A stretch of DNA of 40,870 bases. It comes from a virus (taxonomy: Duplodnaviria; Heunggongvirae; Uroviricota; Caudoviricetes). Numbering within the stretch: position 1 is the first letter of the stretch; every line of letters begins with the position of its first letter. Below, in pieces: positions 23,195-32,550 of the stretch. The stretch is from positions 1 through 40,870 of the IMG/VR virus record IMGVR_UViG_2917413769_000003. One strand, 5' to 3'. The notes beneath the pieces are model-generated. The model did not search any database, had not been told where the DNA came from, and saw only the letters and a program-made list of their open reading frames with translations. The translations under genes and the position numbers were made by a program.

Positions 23195-23508
23195 AATTTG
23201 TTAAAAAACGGCCTGATTTAACATAATGTACGTTATCGGCACCACGCGATCGGCACTCGTCGCTGGATTGCGGCGAAGGGCATGTTTACGCGGATTAAGT
23301 GGCCTGAAACGGACAAAAACGAGTGAATAAATCGTGCATAAAACAGGGTGCAAATTGCATAGCGTTTTTTCGCAGCAAAAGCCCTGTTTTATTAACTTTT
23401 CCCCAGGAAGGAGAAAAGAAAAAGGCCCTCATGCGAGAGCCTCTTAGTGATGAACTGTTTTCAACAGATATCAGGCTAATCGGCTTTTTGGAATTCCACA
23501 ACTATTTT
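23195..23508 (-). promoter_or_regulatory. AT-rich intergenic region, candidate late promoter (PR'-like) / Q-utilisation region
   Basis: 314 bp non-coding, AT-rich, downstream of Q and upstream of late-oriented genes; no convincing -35/-10 pair pinned down. Confidence 0.3.
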
Positions 23509-23881: not shown

Positions 23882-24304
23882 TTATGCCGCTGGGCGGTTT
23901 CTGTGCAAAGTCCTAAGCATCTGAGGCTTTGACTGTACCGACTGATCCATTTCGAGAACCACGTCCAGCATCGCCAGGCAACCGTCGATAAATCCCTCTG
24001 CGGCCTGGAGCCTCTTCAGAACGTGGGTATGCGATACGCCGAGCTTCTCGCCCATCGCCCGTACTGGCATGGCCTGAACGTAATGCCACTCAAGCAGTGT
24101 GCACAGATACGGATCTTTTTTCTTCAGGCAGTTCATAGCGGAGCTGATGATCAGACCGTCGTTGTCGCTGCACTTAAGCCGTCCGGCTTGCGTTGTGGGT
24201 AGCAGATTCTTAAATCCTGCAGCTACAGGGGGAAAGTAAATACTACCGCCTTCACTCGCAGCCCAGCCACCCCATCGATCTAAAACCTGTTGAATATTAC
24301 GCAT
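23882..24304 (-). CDS. Late-gene antitermination protein Q (E. coli QuuD-like)
   Basis: N-terminus MRNIQQVLDRWGGWAAS...VAAGFKNL closely resembles QuuD MRDIQMVLERWGAWAA...IAAGFKGL as recalled; located upstream of lysis cassette. Confidence 0.8.
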   Translation of the reverse strand: MRNIQQVLDRWGGWAASEGGSIYFPPVAAGFKNLLPTTQAGRLKCSDNDGLIISSAMNCLKKKDPYLCTLLEWHYVQAMPVRAMGEKLGVSHTHVLKRLQAAEGFIDGCLAMLDVVLEMDQSVQSKPQMLRTLHRNRPAA

Positions 24305-24435
24305 AGCTCTGACCTCTACGTTTTGCTACGAAAAAATTTTCAGGGAACCGCGTCCGCCTCTCCGTGGGCGTGGATAACGCAGTCCCGATTTGCGTATTGC
24401 ACGTCTCAACATGCAAAAAGTTACTTATTCGGAGT

Positions 24436-24623
24436 GGAACCACCTGCCCCCACCTGGAACCACCTTTTTCTAACCTTTCCCCCAATCGACTTATATATAT
24501 ATATGGGGTTTCTAATAGAAAGGTGGTTCCAGTGGTTCCAGTAGTTCCGCACCGCTTGCCGCAAGGGCTGCGAGGTGGAACCACCTTCGCTTTTAGGTGG
24601 TTCCACGTGGTTCCAGCGGTTCC
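24436..24623. repeat. Iteron array (GGTGGTTCC / GGAACCACC, about 9 copies in both orientations) flanking a (TA)n tract; putative replication origin
   Basis: Copies at about 24436, 24456, 24522, 24532, 24574, 24596, 24607, 24615; TATATATATATAT at 24491..24504; directly 3' of the primase-helicase gene. Confidence 0.5.
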
Positions 24624-26983: not shown

Positions 26984-27124
26984 ATTTAAGTCTCCGCTTT
27001 TGTCTATAGAGCAAATCTATACGAAAACGGATTATTCAGCAATACAGCAATGTCATATCAATCTGGATTAAAATATCCGATAACGCATAATCACCGTCCC
27101 TGTCTTCTACATGGATGAATCCAA
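26984..27124. promoter_or_regulatory. Immunity switch region (divergent cI and cro promoters/operators)
   Basis: 141 bp AT-rich between divergent repressor genes; contains TCTATAGAGCAAATCTATA and CAGCAAT direct repeats. Confidence 0.5.
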
Positions 27125-27799
27125 ATGATTGATACCACCGATATCCTTTCTCAAAACATCAAGTACCTGATGGACAAAGCCAAGATAAGCTCGATAACCG
27201 AGCTAGCTCGTCGGTTACAACTGAATCAGCCAACATTACACAGGCTGGTATCTGGGGAAGTGAAAGACCCGAAATACGCAACGCTGAAGCAGATCGCCGA
27301 TTACTTCCGAGTGTCCCCGATTGACCTGGCGGAAAAGAGCCTTCAGGAGATGAGTAACGGAGGCGACGCCAATACAACAACCTACATATCTCTTCGATTT
27401 AATAAGGTGCCGGTCTTGGGAAATACTCAGCTTGGTGTTGGGGGACTTTGGAGCGACACTCCGTATTCGGTGGGCAGCAGCGATGGCTTCATCTACTGGC
27501 CGACAAAAGATGAAGATGCATATGCTCTGAAATGCGTTGGCGACTCAATGATGCCAAGAATTAAAGAGGGGGAATTCGTAATCGTCGAACCCAACCATGA
27601 CTACGCCCCGGGGGATGAAGTTCTTGTCGTTACGCAGGATGGTGAAGTTATGGTTAAAACTTTCCTGTTCGAGCGCGATGGTCTGTTTCACCTGATGTCC
27701 GTAAACGAAGACCACCCACCAATTAGGGTATCACGCGAAAACATCGAGAAAATCCATTACGTGGCTGGAATTGCTAAATCCGCCCTACGCATGTACTAG
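27125..27799 (+). CDS. CI-like repressor (HTH + S24 LexA-type peptidase domain)
   Basis: 224 aa; N-terminal HTH; C-terminal KCVGDSMMPRI (Ser nucleophile) and VMVKTF (Lys). Confidence 0.8.
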   Translation: MIDTTDILSQNIKYLMDKAKISSITELARRLQLNQPTLHRLVSGEVKDPKYATLKQIADYFRVSPIDLAEKSLQEMSNGGDANTTTYISLRFNKVPVLGNTQLGVGGLWSDTPYSVGSSDGFIYWPTKDEDAYALKCVGDSMMPRIKEGEFVIVEPNHDYAPGDEVLVVTQDGEVMVKTFLFERDGLFHLMSVNEDHPPIRVSRENIEKIHYVAGIAKSALRMY

Positions 27800-27829
27800 C
27801 GCCCACAGCACGACAATCCGTTTCTAACT

Positions 27830-27860
27830 AAACCGCTCAATACATGGGCGGTTTTCTTAT
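27830..27860 (+). terminator. Putative terminator downstream of cI
   Basis: AAACCGC - 11-nt loop - GCGGTTT followed by TCTTAT. Confidence 0.4.
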
Positions 27861-27883: not shown

Positions 27884-27912
27884 TTGACACAAAATCCCAT
27901 TACGCATATAAA
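27884..27912 (+). promoter_or_regulatory. Near-consensus sigma70 promoter (TTGACA - 17 nt - TATAAA) reading rightward
   Basis: -35 TTGACA at 27884..27889, 17-nt spacer, -10 TATAAA at 27907..27912. Confidence 0.55.
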
Positions 27913-28234
27913 TACGATATCGCATAAACAATGCGTTTTGTAATCGCTCTTTAACAAACTGAACCGCGTGACAGGCAAGCCGCTGTGCTCCTGGCAACAA
28001 AATAGCACCCGATGGGATCGAGGTAAGCGCCGAGTCCGTATGCGTACGGTAAGCGTAGAGGACCACACCGCGGCGAGCTGATAAGTCACGCAAGTTGAAA
28101 CGCCCCGACGATGGGGCGCTTAGTTCCCTTTGGGGTGCGGTGAATTGCAGTCCACCGAGACAAGCCGAAGCTCAGCATCGGCCACCGCACCACCAAAGTG
28201 AACTGACCAAGTGAAACTAACAGAGAGGTAAAAC

Positions 28235-28345
28235 ATGCGTTACATCAAAATCGACAAAGGTCCTAACCGTGCACAGCGTCGTAAATCACGTCACGACACG
28301 ACAGTATCAGTAACCGGGAGCAAAGACGCGCAGCACACCGGATGA
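28235..28345 (+). CDS. Small basic ORF (36 aa) with arginine-rich motif
   Basis: RBS GAGAGG; MRYIKIDKGPNRAQRRKSRHDTTVSVTGSKDAQHTG; below ORF-track size cut-off, found by manual translation. Confidence 0.3.
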   Translation: MRYIKIDKGPNRAQRRKSRHDTTVSVTGSKDAQHTG

Positions 28346-28468
28346 ACCGCCCAGAGCGGTTGGAGATGGTGAGCTCGGGCCATCTCAAACTGTGTAACTT
28401 CTTCAAAATCAGTTAACCCCAGCCGCATCCACCATCCCCTGAATCATCCATTGCTGTGTGTAGTCTTT

Positions 28469-28494
28469 GCCCGCCTCCCATGACGGGCTTTTTT
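28469..28494 (+). terminator. Rho-independent terminator
   Basis: GCCCG - 10-nt loop - CGGGC followed by TTTTTT. Confidence 0.5.
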
Positions 28495-28551
28495 ATGTCC
28501 GAAAACGCATTCAGCGCAGTGCGTTCCCCGACATGAAAAGGAGCACCTCCG

Positions 28552-28701
28552 ATGAAACCTGAACACCTCCACCGGCTGACGGGGCGCGACGTGCTCCGCT
28601 ATCGCCGCAACCACTTCGATTTAATTACCGGCCTGGCCCTCGCTACTGCGTGCGGTCTGGTTATTACCTTCATTCTCCTTGTAGCGAGGACCGCAGTATG
28701 A
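28552..28701 (+). CDS. Small membrane protein (49 aa, single TM)
   Basis: RBS AAAGGAG; [49 protein letters not shown]; stop overlaps next gene ATG (ATGA). Confidence 0.4.
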   Translation: MKPEHLHRLTGRDVLRYRRNHFDLITGLALATACGLVITFILLVARTAV

Positions 28702-29615
28702 GCTTAGAAACTAGTCTCGAACTTAACAACAAGCTGCTGACGCAGCACAACGCCCTGCTTGAACAGCTGATTACGGCACTGGCTTCAGGCCAGACAATTC
28801 AGCCGCAGACCCTCGTCACCCAGGTACAGGAATATCGCGAGACGGTACCGGACAAATCGGCCACTGATGACGAGCGGCCGGATCTGGAAACGCTGGAATT
28901 CAGCGACGTTATCGCGCTGGCATGTTTCTACCCTTTACCAGTTATGTACAGCTTCGAGATGTTCCAGCGCGCTATCGATTATCGCGATGCTGTTGGCGAC
29001 AAACGTGTGGTGCAGATCGACGCGCTGGACATGGCGCTCCAGGGTGTGAAACGCGCCAACCATCTGAGCAAGCCAGCACTGTTAGATCTGGCTCGCCACG
29101 TTATTCGCTTCTGGGATGATTTGCCGACTATTGAGTCCCGCCGCGACTTTGCCGAACGCCTGCTGGATGCGCCAGCTGCCGGACGCGACGAAGTAAAACC
29201 GAAGAAGGCCAGCGGCAAAGACAAACAGTCTGAGGAACGCACCGGGCCGTTTTACTGCAAAAGCGTAGACGGTAAGGCAGCCAGTGAGCTCCACACTTTA
29301 CGCAAACTGAATGCAATGCTGGAGAAAGGCCACGTTGAGATCAACCGGGTCGAGTACCTCCAACTGCAGGAAGAATTCGCACGTAAAGACGCAGTAAACA
29401 GCGGACAGGGTAAAGACGATGAAACGGATGATACTCCCGACTTTGCGGCACTGCGTAAACAGGCCGAAGGGCTGATTCTGCAGCTGGCGAAAGGTGGTTA
29501 CCGCGCCGAAGCCGTCGCCATTCTGGAAAAACATGGCGCCCAAAAACTTGGCGGTGTTGCTGACGAGGATCTCGCAGACGTGATCGCCCAGGCCGAAAAA
29601 GCGCTGGAGGGTTGA
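28698..29615 (+). CDS. Hypothetical phage early protein
   Basis: ORF track 28650..29615; start at ATG 28698 ([12 protein letters not shown]...) assumed. Confidence 0.5.
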
Positions 29616-30931: not shown

Positions 30932-31480
30932 ATGAAAATTAAACTGAACAACGTCCGTCTGGCCTTCCCTGCTCTGTTCGAAGCAAAAACCGTGAATGGC
31001 GAAGGCGACCCGCGCTTCTCTGCTGTTTTCCTAATGGATCCGAAGCACCCGCAGCTGGACGAAGTCCGCAAAGCGCTGAAGCAGGTGGCGAAGGAAAAAT
31101 GGGGTGAGAAATGGGAAACCATTTACAACCAGCTGGAGAAAAAGCTCAACCTCTGCCTGCATGACGGTGACGAGAAAGCCGAATACGAAGGCTTCCCGGG
31201 CAACTTCTTCCTGAATGCTGCCAACAAAGCGCGCCCGGCAGTCATCGATCGCGACCGTTCTCCCCTCATCCAGGCTGATGGCCGTCCTTACGCCGGTTGC
31301 TACGTCAACGCGGTGATCGACATCTGGGCGCAGGACAACAACTTCGGCAAACGTGTTAACGCATCGCTGGGCGGCGTCCAGTTCCTGCGCGACGGTGACG
31401 CGTTCGCTGGCGGTGGTGTTGCCGCTCCGGACGACTTCGACGACATCAGCGAAGGCGCAGACGCGGGCGAGCTGATTTAA
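30932..31480 (+). CDS. Phage ssDNA-binding protein (DUF2815-like)
   Basis: 182 aa; follows DUF2800-like gene as in the common DUF2800/DUF2815/PolA phage module; acidic C-terminal tail (DDFDDISEGADAGELI). Confidence 0.6.
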   Translation: MKIKLNNVRLAFPALFEAKTVNGEGDPRFSAVFLMDPKHPQLDEVRKALKQVAKEKWGEKWETIYNQLEKKLNLCLHDGDEKAEYEGFPGNFFLNAANKARPAVIDRDRSPLIQADGRPYAGCYVNAVIDIWAQDNNFGKRVNASLGGVQFLRDGDAFAGGGVAAPDDFDDISEGADAGELI

Positions 31481-31525: not shown

Positions 31526-31717
31526 ATGCGAAGGATTTATATCCGGCTGGTCATCACTCTGGCTATCGCCGCGCTCGTTTACGGCTTCCTGGTTCCTTCC
31601 CTGATCTCGATGAAGGACACCGTGGCTGTGCTGTCTGGTTTCGCGCTGGCGCTGACCGCGCCGCCGTGTCTGTTTGCCATTTTCAAAGGCATCTTTATTA
31701 CTAAGGAAAAGAAATGA
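31526..31717 (+). CDS. Small membrane protein (2 TM), partner of SPFH protein
   Basis: 63 aa, two hydrophobic helices; stop overlaps SPFH start (ATGA). Confidence 0.45.
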   Translation: MRRIYIRLVITLAIAALVYGFLVPSLISMKDTVAVLSGFALALTAPPCLFAIFKGIFITKEKK

Positions 31718-32550
31718 AGAAAATTATCTTTGCTGCCGTCGTCGCCCTGTCGGCGCTGGCTCTGTCTGGTTGCGAACGCGCCACCGTTCCCGCGGGTTAC
31801 GTCGGCGTTAAAGTGGACCTCTACGGTGACGAAAAAGGCGTTCAGCAGTCCGAAGTCGGCGTCGGTAAATATTGGCTGACGTGGAACGAAGAGATTTACC
31901 AGTTCCCGACGTTCAACCAGCTGCACAACTATGATCAGCCATTCACCTTCCAGACCGCCGACTCAATGGATGTGAAAGCCCGGATCGGCGTCGAATATTA
32001 TGTCGACCCCGAAAAGGTGACCAAAATATTCCAGACCTACCGCAAAGGGGTGGACGAAATAACCGAGGTCAACCTGCGCCAAAATATCAGTGATGCGCTG
32101 ATCAACCACTCCGGGAAGATGAATATCAACTCGCTGGCAGCCGGAGGCAAAACGCAACTGCTCGAACAGGTTACGCAGGATCTGAAGTCCAAACTTGACC
32201 CCATCGGCATCAGAATCGTGAAGCTGTCATGGGTAAGCGACCTGGACTACCCGCAGAAAGTGAAAGAATCCATCAACGCGAAAATCGAGGCCACACAGCG
32301 CGCGCTGCTGCGCGAGAACGAGATCGCCCAGTCTAAAGCCGAAGCCCAGAAGGCAATCGAGCAGGCACGCGGCGAAGCAGAATCCACCATGTTGCGCGCC
32401 AAAGCTGAATCTGACGCTATTGCCCTTCGCGGTGAAGCGTTACGCAGTAACCCCGAAGTGCTGCAACTGGAAGCGATTAATAAATGGAATGGCACATTGC
32501 CGCAGTATCTGACCAGCGGCGCAGCAACTCCCTTTATCCCCCTGAAGTAA
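31714..32550 (+). CDS. SPFH/band-7 domain lipoprotein (prohibitin/flotillin-like)
   Basis: 278 aa; lipoprotein signal [20 protein letters not shown]; band-7-like core and C-terminal coiled coil ([22 protein letters not shown]...). Confidence 0.65.

What the first reader, a model, noticed from the sequence alone, without database searches (positions are those of the whole stretch)
28552..28701. Small single-TM protein translationally coupled to the first early gene
Immediately after the terminator a strong RBS (AAAGGAG) precedes a 49-aa ORF with a basic N-terminus and hydrophobic C-terminal helix, whose stop overlaps the next start (ATGA). Small membrane proteins at the head of phage early operons often act as host-killing, exclusion or FtsH-modulating factors such as Kil or CIII.
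Basis: partly seen in the sequence, partly recalled or inferred. Interest (0 to 1): 0.4.

Follow-up and report, generated by a model that had tools for sequence, protein, structure and literature searches.

The report
Conserved small membrane peptide, phage operon
The 49-codon ORF is a real, conserved prophage gene for a tiny tail-anchored membrane peptide whose translation feeds ribosomes into the phage's early replication operon; its molecular target is unknown, and the "terminator" in front of it belongs to a phage copy of the host small RNA RprA.

Summary
ORF 28552-28701 has SD AAAGGAG, a basic N-terminus and a C-terminal TM helix, and its stop overlaps the next ATG (ATGA).

It is a real gene. 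It matches PHROG 11981 (function unknown) over its full length and has 77 homologue clusters in Enterobacteriaceae prophages. All recovered copies are intact at 46-50 aa, and 153 of 5426 complete E. coli genomes carry it. Residues 1-19 are almost invariant despite synonymous changes. The TM segment varies in sequence but stays hydrophobic. All 38 distinct junctions overlap stop and start, with three kinds of downstream gene.

It is the first conserved cistron of a lambda-PL-like early operon on the cI strand.

Codons 8-19 also encode an RNA hairpin. Its 3' arm is complementary to the ORF's own SD, which recalls the lambda cIII mRNA switch.

There is no homology to Kil, CIII or any known family. 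I read it as a tail-anchored effector peptide that also acts as the operon's translational entry point. The target is unknown.

The ORF alone is modestly interesting. The RprA mimic is the more notable find.

The parts
27825..27859 (+). Terminator-like inverted repeat after the cI-type repressor gene (27125-27799)
   Evidence: Inverted repeat I1, AAACCGC..GCGGTTTTCTT; sequence read.
27884..27930 (+). Candidate early (PL-like) promoter: TTGACA (27884-89), 17 nt, TATAAA (27907-12). It overlaps two operator-like 19-mers (27894-912, 27912-930) related to a 19-mer in the cI/cro intergenic region (27075-93).
   Evidence: Relatives carry immunity-specific TTGAC promoters and repeats at the same place, directly before boxA. 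The consensus scan did not call it because the -10 lacks the final T.
27945..27957 (+). boxA, CGCTCTTTAACAA (the rrn/P22-type consensus, from my own knowledge)
   Evidence: The exact 12-mer is present upstream of the small ORF in 53 of 81 distinct relatives and always begins the conserved leader.
27966..28120 (+). Conserved structured leader RNA: a multibranch domain closed by GCGUGAC/GUCACGC, followed by the hairpin CGCCCC..GGGGCG
   Evidence: Alignment and RNAalifold on 11 relatives, 45 predicted pairs of which 4 show compensatory changes. No Rfam family matches.
28395..28498 (+). RprA-like small RNA element. The core AUUGCUGUGUGUAGUCUUUGCCC plus terminator (stem 28469-73/28484-88, U-run 28489-94) corresponds to the processed 47-nt form of RprA.
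   Evidence: Rfam RF00034, 56.4 bits (gathering score 70), E 2e-6. 91% identical over 45 nt to the annotated chromosomal rprA in 5424 of 5426 E. coli genomes. Aligned. Present upstream of the small ORF in about 76 of 81 assessable relatives.
28490..28539 (+). 5'UTR hairpin that pairs the terminator U-run and AUGUC..AACGCA with UGCGUU..GACAU and the A-run just before the SD
   Evidence: dG -18.9 kcal/mol, z -3.6. Across 23 distinct relatives 96% of cells are paired, 3 pairs show compensatory changes, 0 of 500 shuffles reach the covariation score, and slid controls give 34-53% paired.
28537..28543 (+). Shine-Dalgarno sequence AAAGGAG of the small ORF. GGAGCAC (28540-46) is conserved in most relatives.
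28552..28701 (+). Small ORF of 49 aa: cytosolic basic N-terminus (residues 1-23), TM helix (residues ~24-45, nt 28621-28686), 3-4 residue C-tail
28573..28607 (+). RNA hairpin inside codons 8-19. Core ACGGGGCGC (28579-87), loop GAC, GUGCUCCG (28591-98). The 3' arm is also the exact complement of the SD GGAGCAC.
   Evidence: Synonymous sites are invariant in the arms and free in the loop codon D13. Folds. More stable than synonymous-resampled versions in 5 of 7 lineages.
28686..28701 (+). Coupling junction: SD GAGGA (28686-90, in codons 46-47) of the next gene, its ATG at 28698-28700, and the overlapping TGA at 28699-28701
28698..29615 (+). Downstream coupled gene, 305 aa (phrog_6784, function unknown). 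It is followed by the DUF2800 PD-(D/E)XK nuclease (to 30916), an Enc34-type SSB (30932-31480) and later DNA polymerase A.

Best explanation
The ORF encodes a genuine 46-50 aa phage protein: a C-tail-anchored, N-in single-pass inner-membrane peptide. Its roughly 20-residue cytosolic N-terminus, MKPE-x-L-x-x-LTG-x-D-x-x-x-x-RR, is the functional surface.

The ORF is also the translational entry point of a repressor-controlled, boxA-bearing, lambda-PL-like early operon that carries the phage's nuclease, SSB and DNA polymerase module. Transcription starts about 640 nt upstream. It must read through the terminator of an RprA-like leader RNA. Ribosomes then load at the only strong SD after the leader. 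On reaching the stop they reinitiate on the overlapping start of the next gene, whose SD lies inside codons 46-47.

Initiation is probably tuned by RNA structure. A hairpin in codons 8-19 competes with pairing of its own 3' arm to the SD.

Shown:
- The ORF is coding and conserved.
- Its topology features are conserved.
- The stop/start overlap is universal.
- Operon position, boxA, the RprA-like element and the 5'UTR hairpin are all present.

Inferred:
- Membrane insertion.
- Actual translational coupling.
- Terminator read-through.
- The structural switch at the start site.

Guess (about 0.25 each, not resolved): the conserved N-terminus either acts on a host membrane-proximal machine, such as FtsH as a tethered decoy substrate or the divisome, or tethers a phage replication or recombination protein to the membrane.
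For: Coding:
- Full-length match to phrog_11981.
- 77 clusters across Salmonella, Citrobacter, Klebsiella, Enterobacter, Escherichia, Edwardsiella and Trabulsiella.
- Every complete copy is intact, and indels come only in multiples of three.
- dN/dS is 0.20 for codons 2-19 and 0.39 overall. Synonymous variation occurs at P3, L6-L9, D13, V14, R16, R18 and R19 while the residues stay fixed.
- Divergent members (L119, L121) keep MKPE, LTG, D and RR although the RNA arms differ.

Membrane peptide:
- All 46 protein variants have a 19-residue window with KD >= 2.0, an N-terminal net charge of +3 or +4, and a 2-4 residue C-tail.
- AF2 predicts a single helix over residues 3-48, with pLDDT above 90 in the TM part.

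Coupling:
- 38 of 38 distinct junctions overlap (23 ATGA, 15 TAATG or TGATG), with three different downstream genes.
- A46 and R47 are GCG AGG, forming the SD, in 60 of 63 sequences.

Operon:
- Synteny.
- Operator-like repeats.
- boxA and leader.
- No promoter-like site between terminator and ORF, and no room for one in the compact subtype.

RNA structure.
Against: - There is no expression, localisation or phenotype data.
- Codons 1-14 of the viral-contig set were selected with a peptide pattern, so their dN is biased low. The independent protein search shows the same invariance.
- Much of the conservation in codons 8-19 and 43-47 could be RNA-level: a hairpin, and the SD of the next gene.
- The SD-occluding alternative structure is only 2 kcal/mol from the hairpin form in the window. 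It is absent in the E. coli-type, L119 and L121.
- The local hairpin around the downstream SD is no more stable than shuffles (z +0.72).
- The promoter's -10 (TATAAA) lacks the canonical final T, and the scan did not call it.
- No partner protein or homologue of known function exists.
Confidence: 0.6

Rival explanations
1. The ORF is purely a cis-acting leader or coupler. It is translated only to bring ribosomes, and so protection from Rho, to the head of the operon and to hand them to the next cistron. The peptide itself has no function. Its conservation reflects RNA structure and SD constraints.
For: - An RNA hairpin spans codons 8-19. Synonymous sites are invariant in the arms and variable in the loop. 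It is significant against synonymous resampling in 5 of 7 lineages.
- The SD of the next gene lies in codons 46-47.
- dS is only 0.13 in codons 2-12.
- Overlapping stop and start is universal.
Against: - Three divergent versions of the middle segment all remain strongly hydrophobic and of TM length. A spacer would not need that.
- L119 and L121 keep MKPE, LTG, D and RR with different RNA pairings.
- Residues are conserved where codons vary: D13, R16, R18, R19.
- Length is held at 46-50 aa.
Confidence: 0.2
2. It is a superinfection-exclusion or defence peptide: a small inner-membrane protein that blocks DNA entry of other phages or protects the lysogen.
For: It is a small single-pass membrane protein in a prophage. 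Low-level read-through of the terminator could express it in lysogens; this is inference.
Against: - It is a core, invariant gene at a fixed position in a lytic early operon, behind a terminator. It is not a variable moron.
- Almost nothing is exposed to the periplasm; the C-tail is 2-4 residues.
- No PADLOC match.
Confidence: 0.08
3. It is a type I toxin-like or Hok/TisB-like membrane-damaging killer peptide, held in check by mRNA structure and the neighbouring small RNA.
For: It is small and hydrophobic with a single TM. Its translation initiation region is structured, with possible SD occlusion. A small RNA gene lies immediately adjacent.
Against: - The adjacent small RNA runs in the same direction and is RprA-derived. 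It is not antisense to the ORF.
- No significant complementarity exists between the leader and the initiation region, and the RprA seed has no significant match there or elsewhere in the window.
- The ORF is the first cistron of an operon of replication genes, with obligatory overlap.
- The conserved part is the cytosolic N-terminus, not the TM.
Confidence: 0.07
4. It is a diverged homologue of lambda CIII or Kil.
For: Only positional analogy (a small gene in a PL-like operon) and a cIII-like pair of alternative mRNA structures (Altuvia 1989 as cited in PMC6524683).
Against: - No Pfam, NCBIfam or PDB hit at permissive thresholds.
- A profile search of 1.84 billion representatives finds only this clade.
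- It has a TM anchor and is predicted as one continuous helix. Kil, Gp0.4 and Hdi are soluble helix-turn-helix hairpins (PMC11897509), and CIII is a soluble amphipathic-helix peptide (my own knowledge).
Confidence: 0.02

Closest known systems
PHROG 11981 (phage protein family, function unknown)
   Same: Full-length profile match, 1-49 of 49 positions, E 1.4e-33. This is the family the ORF belongs to.
   Different: The family has no assigned function, so membership explains nothing about mechanism.
Lambda CIII (54 aa, PL operon, FtsH inhibitor whose mRNA has two alternative structures controlling initiation)
   Same: A small gene in the early operon on the repressor's strand. Its initiation region can adopt two mutually exclusive structures, one of which occludes the SD (Altuvia 1989 via PMC6524683). 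Its 23-residue cytosolic tail on a membrane anchor is the kind of tail FtsH engages (my own knowledge).
   Different: There is no sequence relationship. The peptide is TM-anchored, whereas CIII is soluble and amphipathic. No CII-like client was identified. FtsH interaction is untested. The SD-occluding structure is not conserved in all lineages.
Phage P1 immI operon: c4 RNA, then icd, then ant
   Same: A leader small RNA is followed by a small ORF whose translation is linked to the overlapping downstream gene. The interdependence of c4, icd and ant is cited in PMC8546580; the coupling detail is from my own knowledge. Icd is a host-directed 73-aa effector that inhibits FtsZ (PMC11897509).
   Different: Icd is soluble and unrelated in sequence. 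c4 is an antisense regulator of icd/ant, whereas the RprA-like RNA here shows no complementarity to the ORF. Rfam's C4 family was not matched.
Lambda Kil, T7 Gp0.4, T5 Hdi (small FtsZ inhibitors)
   Same: Small early-gene peptides in phage early regions.
   Different: Those are soluble two-helix hairpins (PMC11897509). This peptide is a single TM-containing helix. No similarity was found.
Small TM modulators and anchors (Caulobacter SidA, SPO1 gp56, phi29 p16.7) - from my own knowledge
   Same: Single-pass membrane peptides that act on the divisome, or anchor phage replication at the membrane. The position at the head of the replication module fits the latter.
   Different: No sequence relationship was tested or found. 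Those proteins have different topologies and domains. The comparison is purely functional analogy.
StxS, made from PR' and terminated at tR' in Stx phages (relevant to the upstream element)
   Same: A phage small RNA generated by termination in the leader of an antitermination-controlled operon; it acts on the host RpoS network (PMC7547250).
   Different: StxS comes from a late, Q-controlled promoter and is not RprA-derived. Here the element copies the processed RprA core and sits in an early, boxA-type leader.

Membership tests
PHROG 11981 | Full-length match to the family profile | tested here: met
   E 1.4e-33, 115.6 bits, residues 1-49 against profile positions 1-49 of 49.
Lambda CIII family | Sequence match to the curated family model | tested here: not met
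   No Pfam-A family at E<=1. No NCBIfam hit.
Lambda CIII family | Soluble or peripheral amphipathic-helix peptide without a TM segment | tested here: not met
   A 19-residue window scores KD 2.46. All 46 variants score >= 2.0. AF2 gives a TM helix with pLDDT above 90.
Lambda CIII family | Inhibits FtsH and stabilises CII | not testable with these tools
   This needs FtsH substrate stability assays. No CII-like gene was recognised in the window.
Kil / Gp0.4 / Hdi-type FtsZ inhibitors | Soluble helix-turn-helix (U- or V-shaped) fold, per PMC11897509 | tested here: not met
   AF2 predicts one continuous helix over residues 3-48, with the C-terminal half hydrophobic. No Pfam hit.
Kil / Gp0.4 / Hdi-type FtsZ inhibitors | Filamentation on expression | not testable with these tools
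   Requires inducible expression and microscopy.
Translationally coupled leader cistron | Stop codon overlaps or abuts the downstream start, and the downstream SD lies inside the upstream ORF | tested here: met
   38 of 38 distinct junctions overlap (ATGA or TAATG/TGATG). GAGG lies in codons 46-47 in 60 of 63 sequences.
Translationally coupled leader cistron | Downstream translation depends on upstream translation | not testable with these tools
   Needs start-codon or early-stop mutants in a reporter fusion. The predicted hairpin over the downstream SD is no better than shuffles.
Type I toxin (Hok/TisB-like) | Small hydrophobic peptide with a cognate antisense RNA complementary to its mRNA | tested here: not met
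   The peptide is hydrophobic. The adjacent RNA runs in the same direction. The RprA core has no significant complement in the ORF. The leader-to-start-site duplex is no better than shuffles.
RprA sRNA (Rfam RF00034) - for the upstream element | Reaches the Rfam gathering score | tested here: not met
   56.4 bits against a gathering score of 70, E 2e-6, full model length. The 5' half is diverged.
RprA sRNA (Rfam RF00034) - for the upstream element | Conserved 3' core plus intrinsic terminator, i.e. the processed 47-nt form (PMC9262595) | tested here: met
   A 23-nt core is identical. 91% identity over 45 nt to the annotated rprA in 5424 of 5426 E. coli genomes. The terminator stem shows compensatory changes among relatives.
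RprA sRNA (Rfam RF00034) - for the upstream element | Activates rpoS or represses csgD-type targets through Hfq | not testable with these tools
   Needs reporter fusions and Hfq co-immunoprecipitation.
N/nut- or rrn-type processive antitermination unit - for the operon | boxA consensus shortly after the promoter | tested here: met
   CGCTCTTTAACAA at 27945-57. The exact 12-mer occurs in 53 of 81 distinct relatives and always begins the conserved leader.
N/nut- or rrn-type processive antitermination unit - for the operon | boxB hairpin plus an N-like arginine-rich protein | tested here: inconclusive
   A structured leader follows boxA, but no recognisable boxB was found. The only arginine-rich small ORF (28235-28345) is not conserved.

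The most novel reading that the evidence does not exclude
The ORF may be one half of an integrated RNA-plus-peptide takeover module fired at prophage induction.

- The early leader first releases a mimic of processed RprA, rewiring the host's RpoS and envelope-stress small-RNA network.
- On read-through, a bistable cIII-like initiation region gates synthesis of a tail-anchored peptide.
- The peptide's invariant 20-residue cytosolic tail engages a host membrane machine, such as FtsH as a tethered decoy or the divisome.
- Translational coupling sets the dose of the replication proteins.

This would be a new class of membrane-tethered phage effector with a dual coding and structural mRNA.
Probability: 0.1. 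Interest if true: 0.7.

Novelty: new member of a known kind. Interest (0 to 1): 0.4.

Why it matters
Small membrane proteins are the least characterised part of phage early regions. This one is a core gene, nearly invariant in its N-terminus, in a temperate myovirus lineage found in 2.8% of complete E. coli genomes (153 of 5426) and in Salmonella, Klebsiella, Citrobacter and Enterobacter.

If the N-terminal motif targets a host machine, it would be a compact new inhibitor or adaptor. If the ORF is mainly a coupler, it is a clean natural example of one sequence carrying overlapping peptide, RNA-structure and SD constraints.

The context matters more than the ORF. The operon leader carries an unannotated phage copy of the processed RprA core. 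That suggests these prophages tap into the RpoS, biofilm and envelope-stress small-RNA network, a point that can be tested directly with existing reporters.

Tried and rejected
1. Pairing of the 5'UTR CCCCG with CGGGG in codons 10-11. The upstream partner varies (CCCAG, CTCAG, TCCCG, CCCCC and others) with no compensating change. Rejected. The invariance is better explained by the hairpin internal to the ORF.

2. Long-range duplex between the leader and the ORF's start region. RNAduplex energy is no better than shuffles (fraction 0.36). An 8-mer GUGCUCCU in the leader is complementary to the SD, but it is predicted to pair locally within the leader.

3. The 36-aa arginine-rich ORF (28235-28345) as an N-like antiterminator. 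It is not conserved in any relative.

4. Q-dependent read-through. The upstream promoters differ by immunity type while the boxA leader is constant. The RprA-like core is not repeated near the Q or late region. Dropped.

5. tRNA- or tmRNA-like elements in the leader. ARAGORN finds none.

6. A hairpin sequestering the downstream gene's SD (CUCCUU/GAGG). It is no more stable than shuffles (z +0.72) and appears in only some variants.

7. Remote homology. Nothing in Pfam, NCBIfam, PADLOC or PDB sequences. The exhaustive profile search finds only four clusters at 50% identity, all from this clade.

8. Targets of the RprA-like seed inside the window. Only chance-level matches.

9. The search for related loci with the 49-aa alignment in genome contigs returned one locus. 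The degenerate DNA pattern search was far more productive.

10. Literature. No paper in the library mentions 'RprA-like', and a 2025 review of phage small RNAs does not mention RprA. No paper on this phage lineage's early region was found.

Full report
**Observation**

- An ATG-initiated ORF of 49 codons follows AAAGGAG (28537-43) at a spacing of 8 nt.
- The product is [49 protein letters not shown].
- Its TGA (28699-701) overlaps the ATG (28698-700) of the next gene.
- A GC hairpin plus T6 (28469-28494) lies just upstream.

**Is it a gene?**

Yes.
- It matches phrog_11981 (function unknown) end to end, E 1.4e-33.
- It has no match in Pfam, NCBIfam, PADLOC or PDB sequences.
- A search of 5.8 billion proteins gave 77 clusters of 46-50 residues (a few longer, probably from miscalled starts). 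They come from Salmonella, Citrobacter, Klebsiella, Enterobacter, Escherichia, Edwardsiella and Trabulsiella.
- An exhaustive profile search of 1.84 billion representatives found only four clusters at 50% identity, so the family is confined to this prophage lineage.
- A fully degenerate back-translation of residues 1-14 hit 98 viral contigs. Every copy not cut by a contig end is an intact ORF of 46-50 aa, giving 63 distinct DNA versions.
- 153 of 5426 complete E. coli genomes carry it, always on the chromosome and always annotated 'hypothetical protein'.
- Induced, sequenced phages (vB_EcoM-606R2 and relatives) carry it too.

**Selection pattern**

- Residues 1-19 are almost invariant, although synonymous changes occur at P3, L6-L9, D13, V14, R16, R18 and R19.
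- dN/dS is 0.20 for codons 2-19, 0.52 for the TM segment and 0.39 overall.
- The viral set was selected on the peptide of codons 1-14. The independent protein search shows the same invariance.
- The middle segment exists in three quite different versions. All 46 protein variants still have a 19-residue window with hydropathy >= 2.0, an N-terminal net charge of +3 or +4, and only 2-4 residues after the helix.
- AlphaFold2 predicts a single helix over residues 3-48, with pLDDT above 90 in the hydrophobic half.

This is the signature of a C-tail-anchored, N-in membrane peptide whose functional surface is the cytosolic N-terminus. The consensus, including the divergent members P0078 and P0079, is MKPE-x-[LI]-x-x-LTG-x-D-x-x-x-x-RR.

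**Coupling**

All 38 distinct junctions overlap stop and start: 23 are ATGA and 15 are TAATG or TGATG. The downstream gene is of three kinds: phrog_6784, a DUF7666 protein, or a third family. Codons 46-47 are GCG AGG in 60 of 63 sequences, which supplies the GAGG Shine-Dalgarno of the next gene. So part of the conserved C-terminal 'ILLVAR' motif is a nucleotide-level constraint. A hairpin that would hide that SD is not supported (z +0.72).

**Where it sits**

Synteny is constant. Q, the VapE primase and Cro run leftward. On the other strand come the cI-type repressor, a variable stretch, the small ORF, phrog_6784, the DUF2800 nuclease, an Enc34-type SSB and DNA polymerase A. This is the lambda arrangement of cI followed by PL (my own knowledge of the lambda map).

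In the window the order after the cI terminator (27825-59) is:
- TTGACA, 17 nt, TATAAA (27884-27912). It overlaps two copies of a 19-mer whose third copy lies in the cI/cro intergenic region.
- A perfect boxA, CGCTCTTTAACAA (27945-57).

Relatives have different, immunity-specific TTGAC promoters and repeats at this place. All then join the same boxA and a strongly conserved leader. The leader folds into a closed multibranch domain and matches no Rfam family. The ORF is therefore the first conserved cistron of a repressor-controlled early operon.

**The terminator is an RprA mimic**

- Positions 28395-28498 match Rfam RprA over the whole model: 56.4 bits, below the gathering score of 70, E 2e-6.
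- The 3' 45 nt are 91% identical to the annotated chromosomal rprA in 5424 of 5426 E. coli genomes. The prophage copies are unannotated.
- The shared part is a 23-nt core plus terminator. It corresponds to the processed 47-nt RprA that coexists with full-length RprA in vivo (PMC9262595).
- About 76 of 81 assessable relatives carry this core immediately upstream of the small ORF.
- In a compact subtype the U-run abuts the SD (..GGGGCTCTTTTTTGGAGCAC..), leaving no room for a promoter. No promoter-like site lies between terminator and ORF in the window.

The ORF and the replication genes must therefore be reached by read-through, presumably with help from the boxA leader. This is analogous to StxS at lambda-type PR'/tR' (PMC7547250). 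I found no published description of a phage RprA-like RNA.

**RNA structure around the start**

Two structures stand out.

The first is a hairpin between the terminator and the SD (28490-28539). It pairs the U-run with the A-run before the SD. Its dG is -18.9 kcal/mol and z is -3.6. Across 23 distinct relatives 96% of cells are paired, 3 pairs show compensatory changes, 0 of 500 shuffles reach the covariation score, and slid controls give 34-53% paired.

The second lies inside the ORF.
- Codons 10-12 (ACG GGG CGC) and 14-16 (GUG CUC CGN) form a 9-bp hairpin whose loop is the D13 codon.
- The arms show essentially no synonymous variation. The loop codon varies freely, 38 GAT to 25 GAC.
- With the flanking CCGGC/GCCGG the hairpin spans codons 8-19.
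- The natural sequences fold better than synonymous-resampled ones in the window (p 0.003), L005 (<0.0005), L014 (0.003), L017 (0.04) and the divergent L119 (0.0045). L119 uses different arms, CCGGCGA/UCGCCGG.
- The E. coli-type and L121 do not pass this test.
- The 3' arm GUGCUCC is also the exact complement of the SD GGAGCAC. This gives an SD-occluded alternative structure only 2 kcal/mol above the hairpin form.
- This resembles the two-state lambda cIII mRNA (Altuvia 1989, cited in PMC6524683). It is not conserved in all lineages and remains a hypothesis.

**Interpretation**

The best-supported reading has two parts.
- The product is a real tail-anchored membrane peptide.
- The ORF is the regulated translational entry point of the early replication operon.

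The conserved N-terminus implies a specific partner. That partner is constant across phages that differ in immunity and in the downstream gene, so it is either a host protein or a core phage replication protein. I cannot choose between a host-directed role (an FtsH decoy, since the roughly 23-residue cytosolic tail on a membrane anchor is the kind FtsH engages, or a divisome inhibitor) and a replisome-tethering role.

As family assignments, Kil and CIII are excluded (PMC11897509). The main rival is a purely cis-acting coupler ORF. It is weakened by the retained TM character and by residues that stay conserved in lineages with different RNA pairings.

**Verdict**

The ORF is a new, uncharacterised member of a known kind of element, and its interest is moderate. 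The upstream RprA mimic and the boxA leader deserve their own follow-up.

Noticed in passing
window 28395-28498 (+): An unannotated prophage copy of the host small RNA RprA. It keeps the processed-form core and terminator: a 23-nt identical core, and 91% identity over 45 nt to chromosomal rprA. It sits at the 3' end of the early-operon leader and is present in about 76 of 81 relatives. No description was found in the searched literature.
   Followed up: partly
window 27945-28120 (+): A consensus boxA (CGCTCTTTAACAA) followed by a strongly conserved, structured leader RNA of about 130-170 nt. The closing stem is GCGUGAC/GUCACGC, followed by a CGCCCC/GGGGCG hairpin. It is shared by phages with different immunity regions and has no Rfam match. 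It may be an antitermination RNA or a processed RNA.
   Followed up: partly
window 28123-28203 (+); L013 about 4270-4350: A long, roughly 20-bp hairpin whose 3' side ends ..CACCGCACCACCA, like a tRNA acceptor end with CCA. Some relatives carry a T-arm-like GGGTTCAACTCCC at this position. This recalls RNase P-processed phage immunity RNAs such as P1 c4 and P4 CI. ARAGORN finds no tRNA or tmRNA.
   Followed up: partly
window 28235-28345 (+): A 36-aa ORF with a good SD and an arginine-rich stretch (NRAQRRKSRH) that looks like a lambda N motif. It and its surrounding roughly 190 nt are unique to this phage and absent from all relatives, so it is probably not a conserved gene.
   Followed up: yes
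window 27075-27093, 27894-27912, 27912-27930: Three copies of a 19-nt operator-like element, AT(C/A)C(G/C)AT(A/T)(A/T)CGCATA... One lies in the cI/cro intergenic region and two overlap the candidate early promoter. This suggests the same repressor controls both arms.
   Followed up: partly
window 23414-23444 (-): A strong intrinsic terminator (AGAGGCUCUCGC..GAGGGCCUUUUUCUUUU) in the 315-nt gap downstream of the Q antiterminator gene (23882-24304) and the next small gene, upstream of the late genes. It is a likely tR'-like target of Q.
   Followed up: no
window 31714-32550 (+): A Band_7/SPFH-domain protein (278 aa) sits inside the same early operon, between the SSB and DNA polymerase A genes. 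SPFH proteins include the FtsH modulators HflK and HflC (my own knowledge). The slot is variable in relatives: Nmad5, TIR-like, TerB-like and others.
   Followed up: no
E. coli genomes: About 185 extra RprA-core copies exist in complete E. coli genomes beyond the chromosomal rprA. 26 are on plasmids, and there are about 30 more copies than there are small-ORF copies, so the RprA-like module also occurs in other contexts.
   Followed up: no
window 24420-24600 (- strand, between the VapE primase and Q genes): Multiple direct repeats of GGTGGTTCCAC / GGAACCAC(C/G)T in the 290-nt gap upstream of Q. They look like iterons or a binding-site array, possibly an origin or a regulator site.
   Followed up: no
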